This document shows positions 26,041-64,000 of a stretch of DNA of 64,000 nucleotides, piece by piece (the first letter of the stretch is position 1; every line of letters starts with the position of its first letter). Made by a program: the position numbers and the translations under genes. The notes under the pieces are model-generated. The model worked only from the letters and a program-made list of their open reading frames with translations. It searched no databases and was not told where the DNA came from. This DNA comes from Marsupella aquatica. Lineage: Eukaryota > Plantae > Marchantiophyta. Location of the stretch: assembly GCA_973895155.1 (NCBI GenBank), contig OZ316897.1, positions 20,736,260-20,800,259 on the forward strand, read 5' to 3'.

Positions 26041-26161
26041 GAGTTCTATTTGGCGGTGGGAAAACGTGGATGGAGGTTGTGATACAAGAGAGCAAGAACA
26101 GGATCGAGATTCTAGGGTTTTGCGACGATTGTTGAGTTTGGAGGAACGGTGAAGAGGCGAA

Positions 26162-27034
26162 ATGGCAGGAAGGAGGGATTTTCGGTGGGGAGATGAAGCG
26201 GATGAGGACGAGGGGATCGAGGGAGTCCTTCCCCCGACGCAGGTGATCGGGCCTGACGAGAAGGGAGTGAAAATCGTCATCGAATGGAGGAAGAAGGAGG
26301 ATGGTGTGAAAGTGAAGGTGACGACCACGATCCGGGTGAAGAAACAGATGAAGAAGCTTAATCCGGCCACGATCCGGAGGCGGGGCCTGAAGAAGTTCGG
26401 TGATGCGTTGGGGCAGAACTCGTCGGAGAACCTCACGGTGGTCTCCACGGAGGAGATCTTCCTCGAGAGGACCCGCCGCGATGGGCAGAGTGGCTCCAAG
26501 CAGGAGGAGAAGGGCGCCGATCTTGCGTCGCTGGGTAATGCCTCGCTCATCGTTTGTAGGACTTGCGGAAAGAAGGGCGACCATTGGACCTCGAAGTGCC
26601 CGTTCAAGGAGCTGGCGGCCTCGAGAGGGTTCTCTTTGGGAGACAAACCACCAGCTGATGATGATATTTCGGGACTGTCAAGCGGCCCGCCGGGAGCCGG
26701 AGGGAAGGGCTCTTATGTACCTCCCAGCATGCGAGGCGGCGGGAAAGGAGATGGAGAGAGTATGCGGAAAGGACGGGATGACAACTCAATTAGGGTCACC
26801 AATTTGTCCGAGGATACCAGAGAAGAGGACTTGCAAGAGCTCTTCCGGCCGTTCGGCCCCATTTCTCGAATATATGTGGCGTTCGATCGCGACACCGGGC
26901 TGAGCCGTGGGTTCGCTTTCATCAATTTCGTCAATAGGGACGATGCGGTGCGTGGTATCACCAAGCTCGACGGCTATGGCTACGATAATCTGATTTTGCG
27001 TGTGGAGTGGGCCACTCCCAGGTCGGACAGATAG
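26162..27034 (+). CDS. eIF3g: Eukaryotic translation initiation factor 3 subunit G; CDS has no introns
   Basis: 290-aa ORF with N-terminal WGD, zinc knuckle CRTCGKKGDHWTSKCP, YVPPSMR and C-terminal RRM (IRVTNLSEDTRE; SRGFAFINF; GYGYDNLILRVEWA). Confidence 0.97.
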   Translation: MAGRRDFRWGDEADEDEGIEGVLPPTQVIGPDEKGVKIVIEWRKKEDGVKVKVTTTIRVKKQMKKLNPATIRRRGLKKFGDALGQNSSENLTVVSTEEIFLERTRRDGQSGSKQEEKGADLASLGNASLIVCRTCGKKGDHWTSKCPFKELAASRGFSLGDKPPADDDISGLSSGPPGAGGKGSYVPPSMRGGGKGDGESMRKGRDDNSIRVTNLSEDTREEDLQELFRPFGPISRIYVAFDRDTGLSRGFAFINFVNRDDAVRGITKLDGYGYDNLILRVEWATPRSDR

Positions 27035-32610: not shown

Positions 32611-33160
32611 TATTGTAGTTCCATACATTTTCAAGGTAAGATGGCCTTCTTTACATGTTACACCCATGTAATGAAGCTTCTGACATTACTATTGCAGCTT
32701 TATACATTTTCAAGGTAAGATGGCCTTCTTTACACACTACATCAGTGTAAATAGAACTACTATTGTAGCTGTATACATTTTCATAGTAACACTGCCTTCC
32801 TTGCACATTACACCAATGTAAAGAAGCTTCTGGCACTACTCTTGTAGTTTCATACATTTTCACCGATTGATAGCCTTCTTCAGACAACCCATGTAACGAG
32901 GCTTCTGACACTACTCTTGTAGTTCCACAAATTTACATGGCAAGATGGCCTTCTTTACACAAGACACCCATGTAATGAAGCTTCTGGCACTGCCCTTGTA
33001 GTTTCATACATTTTCACCGTTTGATGGCCTTCTTTACGCAAACCATGTAATGAGGCTTCTGACACTACTACTCTACTCTTGTAATCCACACATTTACATG
33101 GGAAGAAGGCCTTCTTTACACAAGACACCCATGTAAAGAAGCTTCTAACACTACTCTTGA
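32611..33160. repeat. Tandem satellite, ~7 units of ~71-83 bp
   Basis: Units start near 32611, 32690, 32761, 32840, 32915, 32994, 33077; consensus TTGTAGTT.CATACATTTTCA..GATGGCCTTCTTTACAC..CACCCATGTAATGAAGCTTCTGACACTAC; partial copy at ~32125. Confidence 0.9.
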
Positions 33161-41839: not shown

Positions 41840-42509
41840 TGCTCACAGAATGCTAAGCCCTGGTCTCTTCCGAAACAAACAGCAAGTCACTCACGAAGAA
41901 ATTCTCTCGACATATTTATCCAGAGGCGAATTATCATCTTCGGTCGAATGACGAACAAATACGAATGTCATCAAGTGCAGAGGCGCCCTTTCATCTGTGG
42001 TCGAATGACAGCCGAATGGAAGTTCTCGGAAGTCACCGCTCAACAACAACAAACCTCGACATGGCCAGTCCTTGCCACGGATATGCCCCTGAGAAATGAT
42101 CAGCCCTTCGTTCGTACTAAAACAGACGTTCAGACAGACGAACAGATGCTTCAGGAGAAACGAAATGGACTCAGATTTCGGTCGAGACTAGAGCTCAGGT
42201 CCAGGAGAAGCCTGTCAGGCCTGATCTTAAAACGATCACATTTCGAGGGTAAAGCTTTACAACCCTAAACCGTCAATTCCAGCTCCATTACCGCAGGCGA
42301 GAAGACAGCAGTCCGCTTCGAACATAATATTCGTTAAGCTCCAGGGAACACTTCAAACCAGTCTTCGATCACCTCCGTCGAGAAGAAGCCAGAACCGTAG
42401 TCTCAGCTTCAAACAGACAAGTTCTTTCAGCTCCAAGTAACGATTTCCTCGCACCACAGAACCGTCTCACTTCTTGCCCGATCATCATACCACAAGCGAA
42501 ACGACGGTA

Positions 42510-43280
42510 GAGCCTAAGTTCGCAAACTCTGGAAAGAAATAACCAGAACGGGAAGAAATTGGAAAGTCGGAATATGAGAACGTAGGCACCCTAATCGGAG
42601 GATTGAGAGAGAGCACAAGACAAACAACGAAGATCCTTTGGTTTGCTACTTCGGCGGATTTGTAGTCTAGATCGGTACACTTGTCAAATGCTGCGAGAAC
42701 ACGTTCAATGTGTTATTGAGGGGAGTGCAAATAACACAGGCGAACGGAATGCTTTTTGAAGGATCCTCCGTTCCGTTAGACAGAGCCTAAGATCGCAAAC
42801 TCTGGAAAGCAAGAATCACAACAGGAAGAAAATTGAAGATCGGAAAACGACAACATAGGCAGAAATTCGGGAGATTGAGATGGAGCACAAGACAAACGAC
42901 GAAGATCCTTTGGTTTACTAATTTGGTTTGCAGTCTAGATCGGTAAAATTGTCGCAGCCAGAACACGTTCATGAGTTATTGAGGGGAGTGAAAATAACAC
43001 AGGCGAACCGAAGGCTTTTTGAAGGATCCTCAGTTCCGTTAGACAGAGCCTAAGATCGCAAACTCTGGAAAGCAAGAATCACAACAGGAAGAAAATTGAA
43101 AATCGGAATATGAGAACGTAGGCAGAAATTCGGAAGATTACGATAGAGCCAAAGAAAAACGACGAAGATCCTTGGGTTTACTAATTTGGCGGATTCTGTA
43201 TTCTAGATCAGTGGAATTGTCGAATTGTCGAACGCAGCGAAAGAAGGTTAATGTGTTGAGAGGGGGGAGATCGATTCGTC
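42510..43280. repeat. Tandem triplication of a ~265-bp unit
   Basis: AGAGCCTAAG.TCGCAAACTCTGGAAAG at ~42510, 42782, 43045; units end in a purine tract (TGAGGGGAG / GAGGGGGGAG). Confidence 0.9.
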
Positions 43281-43717
43281 AATTTGAAGGATCCATACAT
43301 AGATTAGTTTGGTAGGGGCCGCGCGAACGGTGATGTTTGTGCTGAGGACAGAGATCGATTCCTTTGTTTATGAGTCATTTTGAAGGACCCTTGGTTTGGT
43401 TTTAGTTTGGTGGGGGCCGCGCGAACGCGAGCCCCCGCTATCACAAATTATGACGTGCATTTTCCCCTTAGGGAAATGCTAGGACTGGCCCAATCGAAGT
43501 GCAATGAGAGAGCTGATCCTAGACCATCCCCCTTGTGGATCAGGGATAGATCCCGCCCAGGTAAGTATGCTGTAACTGAGTGAGCATTGGCATTTTGTAC
43601 TGGATTTCCTGCGGCTCGGAACAGCGGAGTCCATCACTTATGGGTTTTTCCTGAGACCAGCGCGGCTGCAGCCCTCGACTGCAGAGAGCAGAACGACTGT
43701 TCGTCTTCGGGTACAGT

Positions 43718-54488: not shown

Positions 54489-54893
54489 TTGAAAGAAGAT
54501 ACACATTGAGCGATAAGAAAATCATGGACCTCTCAGCCTGAGGAACAGAGGAGGATGCAGTAGCGCTGATGAAGTCAGCAATCTAGGCTCTCGAACTTCC
54601 AGCAATTCAGTGACGTGGAAAGATTGATCATTGTAAATTGATACAATGATACAAGTTCGACCTAGGCTGGAAACGAGGCATCTCGAAAATTGAAGGAAGA
54701 TACACATTGAGCGATAAGAAAATCACGGACCTCTCAGCCTGAGGAACAGAGGAGGATGCTGTAGCGCTGATGAACTCAGCAATCTCGGCTCTCTAACTTC
54801 CAGCAATTCAGTGACGTGGGAAGAATGATCATTGTAAATTGATACAACGATACAAGTTCGACCTAGGCATTATGGAAATGAGGCATCTCGAAA
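54489..54893. repeat. Near-identical ~201-bp tandem duplication
   Basis: GAAGATACACATTGAGCGATAAGAAAATCA at 54495 and 54696 with high identity throughout. Confidence 0.9.
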
Positions 54894-55039: not shown

Positions 55040-56770
55040 ACTATCATGCATAACGGAGGAGATGAGAATTGTACCGAACAAAAAACCAATTTACCTGCTG
55101 GGCTGTGAGAGATTTTTGCCAATTTGAGTGCGGTGGGGAAACTTGTATAACAGAACGGCGATTGATGTTCGACACAATCAACCTGGCTGCACTTCTTATA
55201 CGTCTTTGGTGTTCAGATATTTGATGTGCTGAAGGGTATCGATATTTGGACACCCACCTTCCAGATTAAATTGACAAACTGGCTTGACGAGGTATTATGT
55301 CAAGTTAGGCCCCAGATCAACCAGAATGATTTCTGCCATTCAAATCCAGAGTTTTATTGCAGAACAAAAGGTATCGTCACTTGCTCCTCGTTCATAATGA
55401 TCCCCGGATCTCAACCTGTGAGTTGTCTTCGTTACGCTTACAAACTATCGACAGCAACCCAACACTATCACACACAGGGCAGGGTTTCCGGCTTACGAAC
55501 TCTTGAAGACCTTGTTCACAACCCTTTGCCACATAGTAGCTAGGTGTAAACGCCGGTAACGTCATTCTCAATTCTCAATTTTGAACTTCATCAAACTTAA
55601 AAGCGGAGTGTGTGGGAATAATTCCAGCGAAGGTCTTCGAGGCTAAGGGTTGAACAAATCCATGAGAAATTCAAGGACCTCAAGGTAAGGTTTCCTTTGC
55701 CACATAGTAGCTAGGTGTAAACGCCGGTAACGTCATTCTCAATTCTCAATTTTGAACTTCATCAAACTTAAAAGCGGAGTGTGTGGGAATAATTCCAGCG
55801 AAGGTCTTCGAGGCTAAGGGTTGAACAAATCCATGAGAAATTCAACGACCTCAAGGTAAGGTTTCCTTCGCTGACCTCCAGTATCAAAACTTCATCAATG
55901 TAGCGACAGGACCGATAACTGTGTGGCAAAAGCTTCAATTCCATTACCTCAACTACGAAATTCAAAACGAAAAGTTGTGGTGCTTCAGACGGAAGATTGC
56001 CTAATGAAGATCGCTTCTTTACTTCAGTCAAATCTTTTCAGTCACTAGTAGAGTATATGTTCAAAGTTCATCGAATTCAAAAATCATGATACAAGGATCT
56101 GGCCACTCAACCGAAAGAATGTTGAAGAACGAGGAACGTCACGAGCTATTCCAGTGAATTTTCCTCGTCCCCTGACATTCTACTGGAGATACCCTGGGAG
56201 AGTAAGTTCCGCCTCCAAGCAGAGGCTCCCGAATTAGGTTGGCCCTCCGTCTCAGGGTTTCACCTCCGTAGGGAAAGGGATGAAACAAATCTCTAGGTCC
56301 ATCTAAGAGGACAACAACTCTTGCGAGCAGAGGGAGATGAAACGTTATCGAACAGTAGTAATTCTTCGCCAGCATCTCTGACTGGTAGATATAGGCGGCA
56401 AAACTTTCACGCTAGTACCTGTCATTCGGTGGCCGTTGTTATGCTTTCAAATGGCTCTACTAAATTACCCTTAACAGAAGATACTTCGTGAGTTCATATG
56501 CTACTCCTCAATTCTTCCAAACGGACTAGACAAACTGACCATACCTTCCACTCCGTAACGCCGCCTGAATCCCCGAACTCACCAATCCCGTCCAACCAAA
56601 GGGTGGAGGTTTTTCCCAAGAGCGGCCTGCTCAAAAAGGAAATTGGGCCCCTCAGACAGGGTAGCTGTAATCTCCTCAGGTTTGAATGAGGGCCAATTTC
56701 TCTTCCGTAAGGGTCTGATAAATCGACTCGAATTGTAAGAATCTAATACGGTCTGCGCCAAACTCAAGTT
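55040..56770 (-). pseudogene. Possible decayed F-box-type gene fragments
   Basis: Broken frames ICSTLSLEDLRW, CDSVGLLSIV and YLLFCN loosely resemble plant F-box / F-box-associated segments; weak. Confidence 0.2.
55523..55868. repeat. Near-perfect 171-bp tandem duplication
   Basis: CCTTTGCCACATAGTAGCTAGG at 55523 and 55694; only a couple of differences visible. Confidence 0.92.
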
Positions 56771-56853: not shown

Positions 56854-58251
56854 TTATTCGATCTTTGAGTCCCGGTTGTACGACATGTTTACAGTGTGAT
56901 CGAGATGGGTTTTGATCGCTGCAATGTAGCCCGCAACGTCCTTGTAATCAACGCTGTACTTCTCACACAAGCGGGCAATAATCGGTTGCAGCTTCGGGAG
57001 ATGACAATGATTAACAATCGGGAACAAATGATGTTCAATCTGGTAGTTCAATCCCCCACTGAAGATGAAGCAGAATTTGTTTCTCACCCCAAAATTCTGG
57101 GCAGTGACCACCTGGTGTTTGAACCAATCCTTATCCTCAGCATGCGCAGCATCGGGGGTCAGGTGGTTGATCTGTGTGTTCATCATGAACAAAAAAGAAA
57201 ACCAGAGGTATGGAATAATGGCGAATGCAAAGCACCGAATCCACGAGTCAAAAACAAAAAATGGCCAACTATGAACCACTACAACTGTAGCAACACGTCC
57301 AAATATATGCATGGCAAGCCTCATCCCGCTGATCTCTTTCATGGGGACAGTTTCATTGTAGACTTTAGACATCAGCATCGAGAGGTCTTCCATCGTGGTC
57401 ATACCAAACTCAACGGCGACAGACCACCGAATGAAAGTGAATCTCGCATGTCTTTGCTTCTCGTGATTAGGAACCCACTCCACGCTCTTGTGCTCTCTTT
57501 TCGTCCAGTAATGGTGCAGCAAATCTGGATCCCGGTCTCCAATATTCGGATAACTGTGGTGTCCAATGTTGTGTTGATGGTACCATGTGAAAGGGCTTGA
57601 GAAGTGGGGCCAGACGTAGGGGACGAAAGCGTTCACTCTCCAATTATGGTGCAGGGAAAAGTGTGCGGCATCATGAAATGTGTTCACTCCCACGACCCAC
57701 ACGCTGAGTGGAAGCAGGAAAAGGGAGGCCCATTCACCACGCAGAAAGCTGATAGTTGCGTAAAGAAACAAGACGGCCATGATGGCTATCTCTAACCATC
57801 GTGATGGCGTGGCTTTCGTTGCTTCACGGATCGAAATACCTCTTCGTTTGGCTTCGATCTCGAAGTACTCCTTGACTTGGAATCGGACAGCTTCCCCGAA
57901 CTCGCTCTTCCAAATGAACTGGTGTTCGGGAATGCCATGCTGCTCTTCGAGAGTCAAGTACGCCTGTGATTGAGTCTCGCTCACCTCATACTTCTCCAAA
58001 ATTGCGTCAAGAATCTTCCGGTGGGTGAATGGATGGTGGCTCTCGAACATCACTGTCCCATCTCTGCTCGCAGCCAGCCCCAAAGCTACAGGGCCCCCGG
58101 GATGCAGCTTCTCGAAATCCGTCAGGTCATACCATTTATTGTGAATCTTTGTCACGAGCCTGCCTTTCGGCAACGTGTTCTCTAGGCTCCCCCTGTGCTT
58201 AGTGCTCACATGCCGGCCCTTCGGCTGCACGGTGGTCGTTGAAGAATGCAT
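56854..58251 (-). CDS. Cytochrome b5-fused front-end fatty acid desaturase (delta5/delta4-like His boxes)
   Basis: HPGG heme motif and His boxes HDAAH, QHNIGHH, QIEHH in one uninterrupted ORF; first in-frame ATG at 58251 (listed ORF starts at TTG 58293); TATA-like element ~58515 on the minus strand. Confidence 0.93.
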   Translation of the reverse strand: MHSSTTTVQPKGRHVSTKHRGSLENTLPKGRLVTKIHNKWYDLTDFEKLHPGGPVALGLAASRDGTVMFESHHPFTHRKILDAILEKYEVSETQSQAYLTLEEQHGIPEHQFIWKSEFGEAVRFQVKEYFEIEAKRRGISIREATKATPSRWLEIAIMAVLFLYATISFLRGEWASLFLLPLSVWVVGVNTFHDAAHFSLHHNWRVNAFVPYVWPHFSSPFTWYHQHNIGHHSYPNIGDRDPDLLHHYWTKREHKSVEWVPNHEKQRHARFTFIRWSVAVEFGMTTMEDLSMLMSKVYNETVPMKEISGMRLAMHIFGRVATVVVVHSWPFFVFDSWIRCFAFAIIPYLWFSFLFMMNTQINHLTPDAAHAEDKDWFKHQVVTAQNFGVRNKFCFIFSGGLNYQIEHHLFPIVNHCHLPKLQPIIARLCEKYSVDYKDVAGYIAAIKTHLDHTVNMSYNRDSKIE

Positions 58252-59735
58252 TGCGGAAACAATGAACCACCAAGCCAATCCAAATCCAACCAACGACTGT
58301 GTTGGTCCAAATGACGACTAACCACTCTGTACTTCGACTGTACTCACGAGTGCCGCTCGCCACCACCCAATTCAGATTCGGGTTCCTCGTTCCTACTCCT
58401 GCTCCAAAATAAATGCGTTCTCAACGATTACAGTTGCTTCACCAATCTCCTCTTCAGCTTCAGAGGATTCAAACATTCAGACTAAAGTTGCTTCACCAAG
58501 CTTCAAACGAGAATATATAGACCCACGATCAACTATTACATTCTGCGCAAGTGGAGTGGAGTTCAAGCCGCCAGCACTGTGATCGAGAAGACCCACAAGC
58601 TTCGATCACACGAGTCGTCATGTTACATCATGAGAGCTTCCCAGAATTGGAATCCAAATTTGGATCCTCTGCTGCTCCAACCGATTCCCTACGGCCACCT
58701 CGCAGAACGAGCAAACTTGACGACCACTCCAGACGTACAAAGCAGAATTCTGCGCGCTACGGTGGCGATTCGCGCCTTCTTTTCTCGCGTGTGCGTCATC
58801 CGATCGCTTTGCAACATTGTCGAATTAAATGATAGATGACTGCGCTGGCAGACTTCACATCCTCACCAAGTCAGCAACGCGTTCGTTGCTTTGCTGTCCT
58901 TGACAAAACACAACTACTGGACTGTGATTGACAATCACTCTCTACCGGGGGGCCGTGCAACAAACAGATAGTAACGTTGAATTGCTGGCTTTTTAAATGA
59001 ATTTCAATCGGTTTTTCTGGAGGGAAAGCCGAACAAACCGACTGCAATGCGAAGCCGATGAGGGATTGTGGAATCAGAGAAGTTTTACTTCTAATTGAAT
59101 CGTCCAGACTTTCGAGACCGATGACGCAGAGTGGAAATCAGGGTGATTCTTAAGGAAATTTTCTTTTTCGCGAGCTGACCAATTTACCTTGTTAAAATGA
59201 TGGAGAAGAGGCTAAGAATACTTGTTATCAACTTTCCCTCGATGACGGTCAGGTCTCCCTAGATTACGTTAAATGTAATCATCAAATTCTGGCTATGATT
59301 CGAAGAAAAAGAATAGTTGCTAATTTCGCCAAATGTTGTGAATACATGTCATGTCATTGAAGTATAATTTGGCTGATTTTCGCCACCAAAGCAAAGCTAT
59401 GGAGTGTGGGCCTACCACTATAAGGTACGAACGAATGCCACGTTTAATTTTTCCCACATCCTGGCCCGGTAAAGAATTTGCCGCAGGATCTCTACCGGTA
59501 CTAGAACTTGATGGGCTCCACTCGCGGCGGCTTTTTTCTCAAGCAAGGTGCGGGCCCAACTGAAATCTTTTGTGAGGTGGTGGGCGCTTTCATTGGCAAC
59601 GCTCTCTGATCCATAGATCATTCTTTTAATACTTTGAATAGTGTAGAATAACTTGTGTTTCATACACTAGTCAATGTGAATCAAATAAAATATATTTTAT
59701 TTTGAACAAGTCAAAATATGTATATCTTTTCACTT

Positions 59736-60042
59736 GTTTTCTTTTTCCTGGTTTAGTGTTTATTCCTTTCGACCTCTTTTTCTTTTTCCTGGTTTGGTGT
59801 TTATTCCTTTGGACCTCTTTTTCTTTTTCCTTTCATGGTACTTTGTTTACTGATTTATAAATTTTGGTTGAAGTTATATCTTAGAACGGGAGAGCTCATT
59901 TCAGTGTCGTCGCTTCCCTCGTTGTCAACAAGAAGTGATACACGACGAGTTGGATCGCATCGGCTCGAGCTCATTTCAGTGTCGTCGCTTCCCTCGTTGT
60001 CAACAAGAAGTGATACACGACGAGTTGGATCGCATCGGCTCG
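59736..60042. repeat. 41-bp tandem repeat (59736-59830) and perfect 75-bp tandem duplication (59892-60042)
   Basis: TCTTTTTCCTGGTTT at 59740 and 59781; GAGCTCATTTCAGTGTCGTCG at 59892 and 59967. Confidence 0.9.
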
Positions 60043-61037
60043 GCTCGGCCTCGAAGGATTCTGTTGTTGGTGAGTTGTGGGTAGTTATGCTTTCACTTCC
60101 TTGTCTTTGTTTCATTGCTGCTGGCTGGTCCTGCTCCTTATTCATGCTTCTTCGTCACTGTTCGTAGTCGTGACTCTTCGCGTTATGGGGTCAATCATCT
60201 TGTGCACGTTTTTCCGCTTCTAGATCTTGTCTGCGTTCGTTTTCGGTAATTCTTCGATCAATCTGTATCGTGTACTCTCGTCTCTAGGTCGCTTCGTCGA
60301 CGGCTTTCTGCCCGACTCGTTCCCTTTCAGTTTCTCCACTCTCGTGTGTCGATAGTTTTTTGTGGCCTGTGGTTTCGATTCTGGCTGTTAGCCATGTATC
60401 CCTTCCGTCGGATTCGACACCCCTTTACTTGTTTGTCCGTGTACTTCCCTTAGGAGAAAGTAGCGCGGCTAGAATTACGTTCTCTGTGTTGTTTTCTAGA
60501 TCTTTGCGTCTGTTATTTTCTGGAGCATTCTTCTGTGCCATCGAAGCTCACACAAAGGGTAGTGTAGACTTGCTGGATTTCTCAGGGACCCCCTGTTTCG
60601 CTATAGTTGACTCGATACTGCGATCACTTTTATGACTTGATCTGCCATCTTTGCTCTGATCAGAGCACTTGGATGGTATTACTACTTGTGGTTCGTAAGT
60701 GGGAATTCATGGCGACCCGACAGTTCAGCTGCTGTGACGCCCACACTCTTCGTGCTATCCTTGTACCAAACTGACGACGGGTTTCCTCCGGAGCTTGTCT
60801 TGTGATCCGCCGCACACAACGTATCATGGCTGTCGTAGCTCCCGAGACTTGTAGTTCACTTATCGTTCTCCTCAGTCCTCTTGTTGTTACGCTTTTGCTG
60901 TTCGTCTATTTGCATGCTCATGAAAGGATGAAGGAAATGAGAGAGTTGCTCTTTAGTCTGTCAAAGTCCAATGTTCTGTTTCGTGGTGATGGTGCTTTGT
61001 TTATGGTTGATTTAGTGTTAAGGACAAGCTTCACATG

Positions 61038-61360
61038 TGTTGGAATTGTCAAGAGCATGGTCCGGCTACGAATTGAACCTAGGACCTCCTGCGTATATTC
61101 TACCTCCCGTGTATATTGTATGCTCTACCACTGAACATTCATCAGTTGAGTGTGGTTCATTTCTAGCACCCTCCCTTGAGCCACACTCGCCACAAGTGAA
61201 ACTCCTGATCTTTGGCTCTGATATCATGTTGGATTTGTCAACAACATGGATTGGCTAGGAATGGATTGGCTAGGAATTAAACCTAGGAACTCCTGTGTAC
61301 ATTGTAGTGCTCAATGATGCATGTATCCTTCATCAGTTTGAGTGTGGTTCATTTCCAACA
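61038..61360 (-). mobile_element. Complete TRIM (miniature non-autonomous LTR retrotransposon) with tRNA-derived LTRs
   Basis: On the minus strand: 5' LTR 61360-61227 (TGTTGGAAATG..TCCAACA), PBS TGATATCAGAGCCA 61226-61213, PPT AAGGGAGGG 61177-61169, 3' LTR 61168-61038 (TGCTAGAAATG..TTCCAACA). TSD ACATG at 61033-61037 and 61361-61365. Confidence 0.9.
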
Positions 61361-63140
61361 ACATGTGTTACAAGTGTCATTGATGGTGGCGTGCTCCGAT
61401 GGAAGTAGATGGACCTGGCAGTCTAGCCACAGTCCAATTGCGATAATGGGCTTGACAACTGCCTCTACAATTGTAGACAACGTCACTTATCAGGTTCTTA
61501 CCATAAAGACCTTTTGTACTGATGTCTTGATTGTACAGATTCAAGATGGACCACACTGACAAGAGGAAGGATGAGAAAGGTTGCTTCCATCGAGGCCTCA
61601 ATGCATGGTGAGTTGCCGATGTCACCTACAACTCTGCCTCATAAATAGAACCGTGCTTGTATGAATGGCCCTGCCAAAGCTAACCTTTCTCCACTGGATT
61701 GAAGTGCATTGTGCAGTGAAAACCCACCATTGACGCCAATCCTTTCGTTGCAGTTGCCATCCATGGCTCCTTCTTCGTCCACTGTATGAGTGGGAGCTAA
61801 CATTGCTCCACTCGAAGATGTAACCCACTATCATGGCTCTTATTTCTCACACATCTGAGACCCAGAAACACTAAAAGTCGGGAAATTCGTTGGGAAGTAG
61901 TTGGGAATCGTTCGATGCGTTGGGTGTTGATTTGTACATCAATCCCGTGCTCTAGGCGGTTTAACATATTCTTTCTAAGGATAGAATTTCGTTTCCGTTT
62001 TCACTGGCAGGGGTCTTCACTACATCGGAGCACGAGTGAGGCTGCGCCTGCTTTCATTTGCTCTTTATCAAATTCGAAATTGGAACCTCTTAGCCAAAGC
62101 TTGGGCAGGCAGTAGCAAGTCCCTTTCTAGGTGCTATGCGAGGCTGTTGGAGTCTTTAGCCAGGCACGATGAACCCATCGAAGTCGATGGACGCCGAAAT
62201 TTTATCCAGTGTAGTTGTGCTGACCACTTCGCTTATTCTTGCGATTTTAAATTCCAAAGTCTCGGACCCTTGGCCTCTTCACCCTATCAATCCCGTGAGT
62301 ATTTTATCTTTTCACTCATTCTTGTGGCACCTTCCGCTCTGAAATACTTCTACAATGGAAATCAGAAACGCTAGCTTTCTCCAAGAGAAGACTCCTCTAC
62401 AGATTTGCTGTATGCGTGACTTTCTTATGTTGGTTTGGTGGCAGCAGCATCGGCCAATCCTTGAATCCCAAACTGAAAGCTGAAATCGACAAACTGTAAA
62501 TCGACATAAGACGGATTTCAAGAAGTCGAACAAAGTTCACAGGGAACCTTTCCAAACCTCACGGGTGAACACATGTACCCCACGGGTGAAAGATCACAGC
62601 TTTTGAAACTTCGCCAGACTACAACCGTTCTCGGCCTCAAGTGACATGATTTTATTATACTCATATAAATAAACTAGCGCCCTCTAAGACAAATTACTAA
62701 CACTAACCAGAGGATGGGACGTAGAATGCAAAGTTCTCTTGTAGAACATTTCTGCACATGAATTCAAGACAAGCTATAAATATGACTTTTGTCCTTTGCA
62801 TCGTTTCCCAATCAGTGATAGGATCTCCGTGTAATTTCTCCACTTGTGGGTTCGTAAGTAGAGTACAGCATAGTAACTAGCTTCATGGTTACTACCCTTT
62901 CGTGGTTGCTGGCTAGACGGATTCCGCCCACAACTTTGTTTCTTGGCTATACTATCCCACAATACCTTCAAATCCTGCACGGCAGGCATCCACCCATCGG
63001 GTCGAGAATTGAGGAACTAGCCTGCTGAAGCGGTTCCATCAATTGAGTGAACCGAAATTTTGGCGTGACATTTTCATCATTTAGACTACTTATGCCCAGC
63101 GATTCATCAAGAGATCTGAAGAATCTCTCGGCCCTGGAAT

Positions 63141-64000
63141 TCAAGGGCCAGTAAGTTTAAGCCTCTTCGCAATGCCTGCAGTGTACTTTCCCTGATGGAA
63201 AGCTTGCTCCAACTCCAGCTTGGTAGGTTTTCTTGTCCCATCTCCAGCAAAGGTGCCGGCTCCGTATGGAGACCCACCCTTCAGTGCACTGATCTCGAAC
63301 ATGCCCGCTCCGAAGGTGTACCCAATGGGCACAAACATCATTCCGTGATGCGTAAGCTGTGTAATTGCAGTCAACCTGCCCCACAAATTGCATTAAAACT
63401 TTTCTATTAGAAGAGTCTCGACACATTATTCCACAAACAAGGGAACCAAATCCCTGCTCACTTCCATCTGTCAACTCCAGCTTCGACCCAAAAAAACATT
63501 TCACCGGGGTTCAAGTTCGGCTCCAGAGTGTCAATTTTACTAGATGGAACTTATCAAGGTTAGGAGTCACATTGCATAAATCCGTAACATTTCACTTCGA
63601 TTGATTTGTTGTCATTTCTCTGATTTGCTTCAAGGAGCTAATTGAGACACCAAAACGCTCTGGACAATTTTTAAACCAAGCGACCGTCACGACAACAACT
63701 CAGCTTCGTCGAGTAGGGATCAGAAAACGAAATCTGGCACTCACGCCTTCTTGACTGACCAGGCCACGCAATGGACTGTGGAAGAGGAGCTGGAAGTGAG
63801 GCACGGTAATAGAATCTACAGTAGCTATGTTAAGAGATCGGCAAGAACAGTCCACGTTGGAAAGGAAGGACCAGAAAACTCACGCGGTGGTCTCTTGGCC
63901 GCCTCCCTGTGATCCAGTGGAGTAGAAGAGGCCGGCCGGTTTCCCTGCCAAAGCCTGTGTGCGCCACAGCCCACCGGTGGCATCGAAGAAAGCTTTGAAC
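63141..64000 (-). CDS. Flavodoxin-like NAD(P)H:quinone oxidoreductase (FQR1/WrbA family), last two exons
   Basis: [39 protein letters not shown]| (exon ends 63884) spliced to [36 protein letters not shown] (63375-63141). Confidence 0.95.

What the first reader, a model, noticed from the sequence alone, without database searches (positions are those of the whole stretch)
61038..61360. 323-bp LTR retroelement whose LTRs are built around a tRNA-like Pol III module
Seen: two related LTRs of 134 and 131 bp with TG..CA ends, a perfect 5-bp TSD (ACATG), a PBS one base off the initiator-Met consensus TGGTATCAGAGC, a PPT, and only 58 bp of internal sequence. The 3' LTR contains a D-arm/A-box (GTTC-AGTGGTA-GAGC), a TATACAC anticodon-loop-like segment with a short internal duplication, a T-arm/B-box (GGTTCAATTC) and a ..GGACCA end. 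The 5' LTR has the perfect T stem CTAGG-TTTAATT-CCTAG but a decayed A-box. Known: Cassandra TRIMs carry 5S rRNA in their LTRs, and I recall tRNA-bearing TRIMs being named Helenus, so the architecture may not be new even if this family is. Inference: a Pol III-transcribed parasite mobilised by an iMet-primed autonomous LTR element; LTR divergence suggests an old insertion.
Basis: partly seen in the sequence, partly recalled or inferred. Interest (0 to 1): 0.85.

Follow-up and report, generated by a model that had tools for sequence, protein, structure and literature searches.

The report
Liverwort mini-retrotransposon with tRNA-derived ends
This is a decayed copy of a multi-copy, protein-free mini-retrotransposon in a liverwort, whose terminal repeats carry a tRNA-like stretch that likely serves as the family's RNA polymerase III promoter; it fits the already described Helenus group and would extend that group to bryophytes.

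Summary
The structure is real: minus strand, LTRs of 134 and 131 bp, 58-bp internal part with PBS and PPT, ACATG on both sides. The host is a liverwort, nearest Calypogeia. Contigs of four public runs show an interspersed family with sharp ends at 61038 and 61360; most other copies have the canonical PBS, and some carry a complete box A that both LTRs here have lost. This copy alone is not a significant tRNA match (best hit of the window, CM E=0.53, HMM E=0.038), and the 'TATACAC anticodon' lies in a local duplication. It meets the operational definition of Helenus (Kojima 2024), whose only plant record is Selaginella; none of that paper's families matches it. A 12-bp inverted repeat encloses the PPT, and similar stems can be read in published Helenus. 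Pol III transcription and the Copia partner are inferred, not shown. Verdict: new family of a known kind, in a new host lineage.

The parts
61033..61037 (.). Target-site duplication, left copy (ACATG)
   Evidence: sequence
61361..61365 (.). Target-site duplication, right copy (ACATG)
   Evidence: sequence; a contig of run X2 joins left flank to right flank without the element, but the letters at the join were not displayed
61227..61360 (-). 5' LTR, 134 bp, TG..CA; box A and the 5' acceptor strand deleted (19 nt), box B damaged
   Evidence: comparison with two X2 contigs table 5c (by eye); loose ends of diverse flanks at 61360 in 3 of 4 runs
61270..61286 (-). T-arm of the 5' LTR: perfect 5-bp stem, loop TTTAATT
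   Evidence: rank 6 of 10 hits of the tRNA model, 8.4 bits, E=3.5
61247..61276 (-). Perfect 15-bp tandem duplication in the 5' LTR
61215..61226 (-). Primer-binding site, one base off TGGTATCAGAGC (initiator-Met type; the isotype label is recalled)
   Evidence: other copies carry the canonical base at 61224 in 74-85% of laid depth in all 4 runs
61177..61188 (-). Internal arm of a 12-bp inverted repeat (11 of 12 complementary) that encloses the PPT and the start of the 3' LTR
   Evidence: I4; 4 other such repeats in 64 kb; 9 contigs of X1 and X2 match up to 61187 and then run on differently
61169..61177 (-). Polypurine tract AAGGGAGGG abutting the 3' LTR
61038..61168 (-). 3' LTR, 131 bp, TG..CA
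   Evidence: loose ends of diverse flanks at exactly 61038 in 4 of 4 runs
61148..61159 (-). U3 arm of the inverted repeat around the PPT
   Evidence: I4; folds as the main stem
61058..61136 (-). tRNA-like module of the 3' LTR: D-arm with partial box A (61122-61136), variable loop AGGTC, T-arm with intact box B (61066-61082), acceptor-like 3' strand ending CCA (61058-61065)
   Evidence: best window hit of an E. coli tRNA HMM (61070-61095, E=0.038) and of a tRNA covariance model (61066-61136, 11.1 bits, E=0.53)
61085..61120 (-). 18-bp tandem duplication (15 of 18 alike) in the anticodon-arm region, specific to this LTR
   Evidence: D3; single in the 5' LTR and in the X2 contigs table 5c

Best explanation
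This is an old, damaged copy of an interspersed liverwort TRIM family of the Helenus kind, whose intact members likely use a tRNA-derived internal promoter (boxes A and B) in the 5' LTR to make an RNA polymerase III transcript that an autonomous LTR retrotransposon, likely a Copia, would reverse-transcribe and integrate. Shown: LTR-PBS-PPT-LTR anatomy, 5-bp TSD, many other copies with the same ends, canonical PBS and complete box A in other copies, no coding capacity. Inferred: Pol III starts at the tRNA 5' end about 50 nt into the 5' LTR and, finding no T4 run in the element, reads through PBS, internal part, PPT and into the 3' LTR, so that the tRNA module is the R region for the first strand transfer; initiator-Met tRNA primes minus-strand synthesis; the PPT primes the plus strand; the U3 is restored from the 3' LTR; integrase makes the 5-bp duplication. 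A 12-bp stem between the internal part and U3 would put the PPT and LTR start in a loop and may be the signal read by the partner's Gag or RNase H (speculative). This copy is likely dead: its 5' LTR has no box A and a damaged box B, and its PBS is mutated. The module is a promoter relic, not a working tRNA.
For: Anatomy. Family: depth over the 3' LTR and internal part is 794-986 against about 20 in most flank bins in X1, with the same peak in X2-X4; loose ends fall at exactly 61038 (7, 9, 8, 5 contigs) and 61360 (8, 12, 13 contigs in X1-X3) with flank agreement of only 0.44-0.49, i.e. different insertion sites. Box A: a loose-end consensus of 7 X3 contigs at 61312 reads, on the element's strand, TAGCTCAGTGG running into GAGCAC, which holds both box A motifs that PMC10886601 names (TRGCY, YGG); one X4 contig and two X2 contigs show variants of it. 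Box B GGTTC is intact in the 3' LTR. Independent tRNA profiles from 24 E. coli tRNAs rank the 3' LTR first in the window. No T4 run in the element on its sense strand. Published parallel: Helenus-1_SMo, 325 bp, LTR 120, internal 85, 5-bp TSD, same PBS type; fungal Helenus with 5-bp TSDs are tied to Copia.
Against: This copy does not reach significance as a tRNA: no Rfam tRNA hit at E<=10, CM E=0.53, ARAGORN calls it only at a threshold where 9 other window sites are also called, and a two-box score ranks it 4th in the window. The evidence for intact box A comes from 30-40-letter fragments, not from whole copies. Unlike Helenus-1_SMo and many published Helenus (by eye), the LTR has no T-run after the tRNA part, and the next T4 lies 1.6 kb from the 5' LTR's module, so no terminator is identified. 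The PPT stem is not significant on the RNA strand (z -1.0). TSDs of other copies were not seen.
Confidence: 0.75

Rival explanations
1. An ordinary Pol II-transcribed TRIM (or deletion derivative of an autonomous Copia) whose LTR once captured a tRNA-derived SINE head or tRNA gene that is now a passenger; boxes A and B are not used for transposition.
For: Both LTRs of this copy lost box A by separate deletions; no terminator is visible; some related contigs share the LTR start and PPT arm but run on with another internal sequence, and one has the canonical PBS beside a different LTR end (table 7), so longer relatives may exist. Pol III activity is unvalidated for all Helenus (PMC10886601).
Against: The U3 upstream of the module is only about 50 nt, with no room for a usual Pol II promoter; other copies keep both boxes while the anticodon arm has decayed (16 nt, no 5-bp stem), the pattern expected of promoter retention (by eye); the deletions here are later damage, since LTRs are identical at insertion.
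Confidence: 0.15
2. Two neighbouring tRNA-derived SINE copies or tRNA pseudogenes that mimic LTRs by chance.
For: The two repeats differ by 15% and by four indels; the right flank resembles the LTR end over 14 more bases (D5), so the TSD could be part of a local similarity.
Against: TG..CA ends, a PBS and a PPT exactly at the inner borders, family borders at exactly 61038 and 61360, the internal part as repeated as the LTRs, and a contig that joins the two flanks without the element.
Confidence: 0.03
3. The family spreads working tRNA genes (for example tRNA-Val, from TATACAC).
For: D-arm, variable loop, T-arm and a CCA-like end lie in tRNA order; a few published Helenus can fold as tRNAs.
Against: No ARAGORN or Rfam call; TATACAC belongs to a private duplication; the anticodon arm in the 5' LTR and in the X2 contigs is 16 nt without a stem; acceptor strands pair at 5 of 7 positions at best (by eye).
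Confidence: 0.04

Closest known systems
Helenus-1_SMo (Selaginella moellendorffii; Kojima 2024, PMC10886601)
   Same: Size (325 vs 323 bp), 5-bp TSD, PBS starting TGGTATC, purine tract abutting the LTR, LTR ends TGTTAGAA..TTCCAACA (the majority letter at 61166 in other copies), same box A, GGAGGTCCT variable-loop/T-stem start, tRNA module close to the LTR's 3' end, and a stem between the internal 3' end and U3 around the PPT (all by eye). The T-stem differs by paired changes that keep the pairing.
   Different: U3, U5, anticodon arm and internal part are not alignable by eye; internal 58 vs 85 bp; intact LTR about 138 vs 120 bp; SMo has a T4 run in U5, this family shows none; host is a liverwort, not a lycophyte. 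No computed alignment was made.
Helenus-1_AmAr (basidiomycete Amylostereum areolatum)
   Same: The only other of 2 supplement entries holding GGAGGTCCT; similar tRNA module; TGTT..AACA ends; a partial PPT-enclosing stem (by eye).
   Different: Much longer U3, different PBS, T-rich U5. A 10-base internal match unique in the supplement covers a position where 86-98% of the depth of other liverwort copies has another base (61191), so it is weak evidence. Bivalve Helenus have a similar module too, so much of the likeness is generic.
Cassandra TRIMs (PMC7215508 passages; PMC10886601)
   Same: Non-coding TRIM with a Pol III promoter in each LTR and the PBS TGGTATCAGAGC.
   Different: Cassandra carries 5S rRNA (boxes A and C); no 5S match here. 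Cassandra is larger (565-860 bp), reported from ferns and seed plants, and its Pol III transcription has been shown.
tRNA-derived SINEs (SINE2)
   Same: tRNA head with boxes A and B; proposed source of Helenus modules.
   Different: No poly-A or simple-repeat tail, has LTRs, PBS, PPT and a fixed 5-bp TSD; integrase route rather than target-primed reverse transcription.

Membership tests
TRIM | Under 1000 bp, two direct terminal repeats with TG..CA, no protein coding | tested here: met
   323 bp; only short chance frames cross it
TRIM | PBS after the 5' LTR and PPT before the 3' LTR | tested here: met
   canonical PBS base in 74-85% of depth of other copies
TRIM | Interspersed copies with fixed ends | tested here: met
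   depth peak and loose ends at 61038 and 61360 with unrelated flanks, 4 runs of 2 studies; X1 may be the window's source
Helenus | 5-bp TSD (plant and fungal members) | tested here: met
   ACATG for this copy; TSDs of other copies could not be read
Helenus | Box B motif GGTTC in the LTR | tested here: met
   intact in the 3' LTR (61075-61079), one change in the 5' LTR
Helenus | Box A motifs TRGCY and YGG in the LTR | tested here: met
   met at family level in fragments of other copies (7 X3 contigs; variants in 1 X4 and 2 X2 contigs); in this copy only YGG survives, in the 3' LTR
Helenus | LTR sequence recognisably similar to tRNA by profile search | tested here: inconclusive
   rank 1 in 64 kb by HMM (E=0.038) and CM (E=0.53); no Rfam hit; only the damaged copy could be scored, with bacterial tRNA models
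Helenus | Identity with a catalogued family | tested here: not met
   motif searches of the paper's supplement found no entry with this LTR start, box A context or exact PBS 12-mer (line breaks can hide a motif); only one plant family is listed. Repbase itself was not available
TRIMp3 | Transcription by RNA polymerase III from the LTR | not testable with these tools
   needs RNA end mapping; also unshown for published Helenus
Helenus (Copia-dependent branch) | Autonomous partner sharing PBS, PPT or internal ends | not testable with these tools
   no whole genome held; no second PBS next to an LTR end in the window
Cassandra / Ajax | 5S rRNA-derived sequence in the LTR | tested here: not met
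   no 5S match in Rfam scans

The most novel reading that the evidence does not exclude
The liverwort family and Selaginella Helenus-1_SMo descend from one tRNA-promoter TRIM lineage that predates the split of bryophytes and vascular plants (older than Cassandra), or that was exchanged between plants and basidiomycete fungi; and the stem that loops out the PPT and LTR start, readable here and in lycophyte, rust-fungal and fish Helenus but not discussed in the main text of the describing paper, is the cis-signal by which these LTR-unrelated parasites are recognised by an autonomous partner.
Probability: 0.3. Interest if true: 0.6.

Novelty: new member of a known kind. Interest (0 to 1): 0.36.

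Why it matters
Helenus had one plant record, in a lycophyte, and an earlier survey found no TRIMs in the moss Physcomitrella (PMC4717578 passage). A liverwort family with tens of copies or more makes plant tRNA-promoter TRIMs a group rather than a one-off and lets one test single ancient origin against repeated SINE capture or transfer from fungi, using the many bryophyte genomes now public. At about 330 bp it is also near the small end of known Helenus (311-1263 bp), a good minimal substrate for asking which signals a non-autonomous LTR element needs; the stem around the PPT is a concrete candidate. It may also inflate tRNA pseudogene counts in liverwort annotations. It does not change the known mechanism.

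Tried and rejected
No whole genome is held, so copies could not be fetched, aligned or checked for TSDs. Collection scans for relatives: JGI metagenomes, pattern of T-arm plus PBS, 0 loci; 22-base module motif, 1 locus, L001, unrelated outside the motif and without LTR features by eye; prokaryote genomes 0; viral contigs 11 loci, 9 of 11 holding phage tRNA genes by ARAGORN, 2 with none, not examined further. Sequencing runs: no RNA holder listed. Earlier scan findings: none in 3 look-ups. Exact look-up of two window proteins: 0 of 2. ARAGORN at lowered thresholds does not single out the module (10 calls at 85%, the module among the last three to appear). The first HMM (E=0.0015) included phage tRNAs picked by a motif of the element and was set aside for the E. 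coli-only model (24 tRNAs; 13 long tRNAs and 16 phage ones dropped). Folding of the module or of the predicted transcript is not better than shuffles (z -0.2 to -1.0); only the antisense strand of the PPT stem is (z -4.0 RNA, -3.3 DNA). Joints that 'go back' were considered as tandem arrays and rejected: LTR-to-LTR mismapping explains them. A fungal link through a shared internal 10-mer was weakened (see Closest known systems). Assigning a parent tRNA isotype was not possible.

Full report
Observation. The element lies on the minus strand at 61038-61360. It has a 134-bp 5' LTR (61227-61360), 58 internal bases and a 131-bp 3' LTR (61038-61168), and ACATG on both sides. The two LTRs align with score 79 against at most -15 in 1000 shuffles. 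In four gap-free blocks they differ at 14 of 96 bases (K2P 0.16). The 5' LTR has a perfect 15-bp tandem duplication and the 3' LTR an 18-bp one. The PBS starts directly after the 5' LTR and is one base off TGGTATCAGAGC; the PPT abuts the 3' LTR. There is no second copy in the window. The element is intergenic, between a desaturase-like gene (frame 56854-58317) and a flavodoxin-like exon near 63141 (both labels recalled from motifs, not tested).

Host. The eIF3G protein of the window is 95% identical to a Calypogeia fissa protein, 84-86% to Riccia and Marchantia and 68% to Selaginella. In a tree of 31 rows (the window protein, the top 26 hits and 4 picked outgroups out of 120 listed) it groups with Calypogeia (99/96) inside a liverwort clade (99/95). 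The host is a liverwort, likely a leafy one; this rests on one gene.

Family. No genome is held, so I laid the contigs of four public runs (2 studies; X1 may be the window's source) on 60000-62500 at 80% likeness (144, 280, 262 and 101 contigs laid). Summed depth in X1 is about 20 in most flank bins and 794-986 over the 3' LTR and internal part; X2-X4 show the same peak. Loose ends fall at exactly 61038 in all four runs and at 61360 in three (61358 in X4), with flank agreement of 0.44-0.49, which means many different insertion sites. Depth ratios in X1 (about 59 at 61197, 124 at 61166) suggest tens of internal parts and about a hundred LTR ends, but the tool warns that this is no copy number. 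Most laid contigs are under 95% alike, and many of the 15 joints shown (of 48) are internal deletions, so the family is largely old. Contigs without differences bridge the left junction in X1-X3 and the right junction in all four runs, so the insertion is not an assembly artefact.

What other copies show. At 61224 the canonical PBS base has 74-85% of the depth in each run; at 61166 the LTR starts TGTTAG in 94-97%. Seven X3 contigs match the 5' LTR up to 61312 and then continue with a complete box A (TAGCTCAGTGG on the element's strand) preceded by a G-rich acceptor-like strand; one X4 contig and two X2 contigs show variants. Against the two X2 contigs the 5' LTR lacks 19 bases; the 3' LTR lacks about 23; correcting each LTR for its deletion and duplication gives about 138 bp both times (arithmetic by eye; 24 of 289 loose-end rows and 12 of 58 between-letter rows were displayed). 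Those contigs have a single anticodon-arm segment of 16 bases without a stem, so TATACAC is not a family anticodon. One 164-base X2 contig (depth 98) runs from the left flank into the right flank without the element (joint 61051 to 61392; loose end). It is about 90% alike on the right, so it is a paralogue or diverged haplotype, and the letters at the TSD were not displayed. An X3 contig that shares a variant with it has another left neighbour, so the flank is itself a low-copy repeat.

tRNA-likeness. ARAGORN finds nothing at default and is uninformative at lowered thresholds. Rfam gives no tRNA or 5S hit at E up to 10 or at gathering. An HMM from 24 E. coli tRNAs ranks 61070-61095 first in the window, E=0.038; a simple two-box score ranks the 3' LTR fourth. 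A covariance model from the same 24 tRNAs ranks 61066-61136 first of 10 hits, 11.1 bits, E=0.53, aligning D-arm, variable loop and T-arm in register, with the 5' LTR's T-arm sixth. So the damaged copy is only suggestive by itself; the case rests on it together with the intact box A in other copies.

A further feature. A 12-bp inverted repeat (61148-61159 and 61177-61188, 11 of 12) encloses the PPT and the first 9 bases of the 3' LTR. Four other such repeats occur in 64 kb, about 0.02 per element length. It is the main stem of the local fold but not beyond shuffles on the RNA strand (z -1.0), while the antisense strand is (z -4.0 as RNA, -3.3 as DNA). Nine contigs of X1 and X2 share the internal part only up to 61187, the end of the arm. 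By eye, the published Helenus-1_SMo has a longer stem of the same kind, the zebrafish LTR-11_DR group a 13-bp one, and rust-fungal and Amylostereum families weaker ones; several bivalve families show none that I could see. The main text of PMC10886601 does not mention it. Its function is speculation.

Mechanism. Shown: anatomy, TSD, multicopy family, boxes A and B at family level. Inferred from the known LTR cycle and from Cassandra: Pol III initiation at the tRNA 5' end within the 5' LTR, read-through (no T4 in the element), the tRNA module as R region, initiator-Met priming, PPT priming, integration in trans. A Copia partner is likely because 5-bp TSDs and this PBS type tie fungal Helenus to Copia, but plant Gypsy elements also use this primer and TSD length (recalled). 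No terminator was identified. This copy is likely inactive.

Literature. PMC10886601 (whole main text; supplement passages, and part 5 of 11; figures not seen) defines Helenus as TRIMs under 1000 bp with tRNA-derived LTR sequence and lists Selaginella moellendorffii as the only plant. It does not say whether liverwort genomes were searched; Marchantia does not occur in its supplement. Passages only: PMC13570524 and PMC12859917 merely cite Helenus; PMC4717578 found TRIMs in Selaginella but not Physcomitrella and does not name Marchantia; PMC7215508 gives Cassandra's PBS, range and fold; PMC6934838 describes internal hairpins in bivalve TRIMs; PMC12131699 had no whole-word hit. Eight library searches (listings only) showed no liverwort or other bryophyte Helenus. 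The library lacks most subscription papers and Repbase, where such a family could already be filed.

Verdict. A real element, correctly read by the first stage in its anatomy and in its guess at Helenus. It is a new family of a known kind, in a host lineage from which I found no report. Whether it shares an ancestor with the Selaginella family is open: ends, PBS, size, module and PPT stem agree, but these are partly generic and the other parts do not align by eye. Interest 0.36.

Noticed in passing
window 61361-61379 vs 61033-61051: The flank after the right TSD resembles the LTR's end for 14 more bases (16 of 19 with the TSD, D5), and an X3 contig starts matching at 61368 with another left neighbour: the element may have inserted at the end of an older repeat, or prefers look-alike targets.
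   Followed up: partly
window 61148-61188: Inverted repeat enclosing the PPT; similar stems readable by eye in several published Helenus.
   Followed up: partly
runs X1, X2, X4 laid on 61187-61213: Related contigs share the LTR start, PPT and stem arm but have another internal sequence; one has the canonical PBS beside a different LTR end: sister subfamilies or longer relatives.
   Followed up: no
window 43410-43568 (-): U1 snRNA gene, 130.8 bits, followed downstream by a 263-bp tandem repeat of 2.5 copies at 42509-43189.
   Followed up: no
window 56854-58317 (-): Intronless 487-codon frame that looks like a cytochrome b5-fused front-end fatty-acid desaturase (HPGG and histidine boxes; label recalled, not tested).
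   Followed up: no
window 26153-27034 (+): Intronless eIF3G gene, used here to place the host among liverworts.
   Followed up: yes
window 32613-33159, 54489-54893, 55523-55868, 59892-60046: Tandem repeats of 79 bp x7, 201 bp x2, 171 bp x2 (99% alike) and 75 bp x2.
   Followed up: no
L001:980-1070 (-): Metagenome contig with a tRNA-head-like stretch sharing 22 bases with the module but no LTR features; probably an unrelated SINE fragment.
   Followed up: partly
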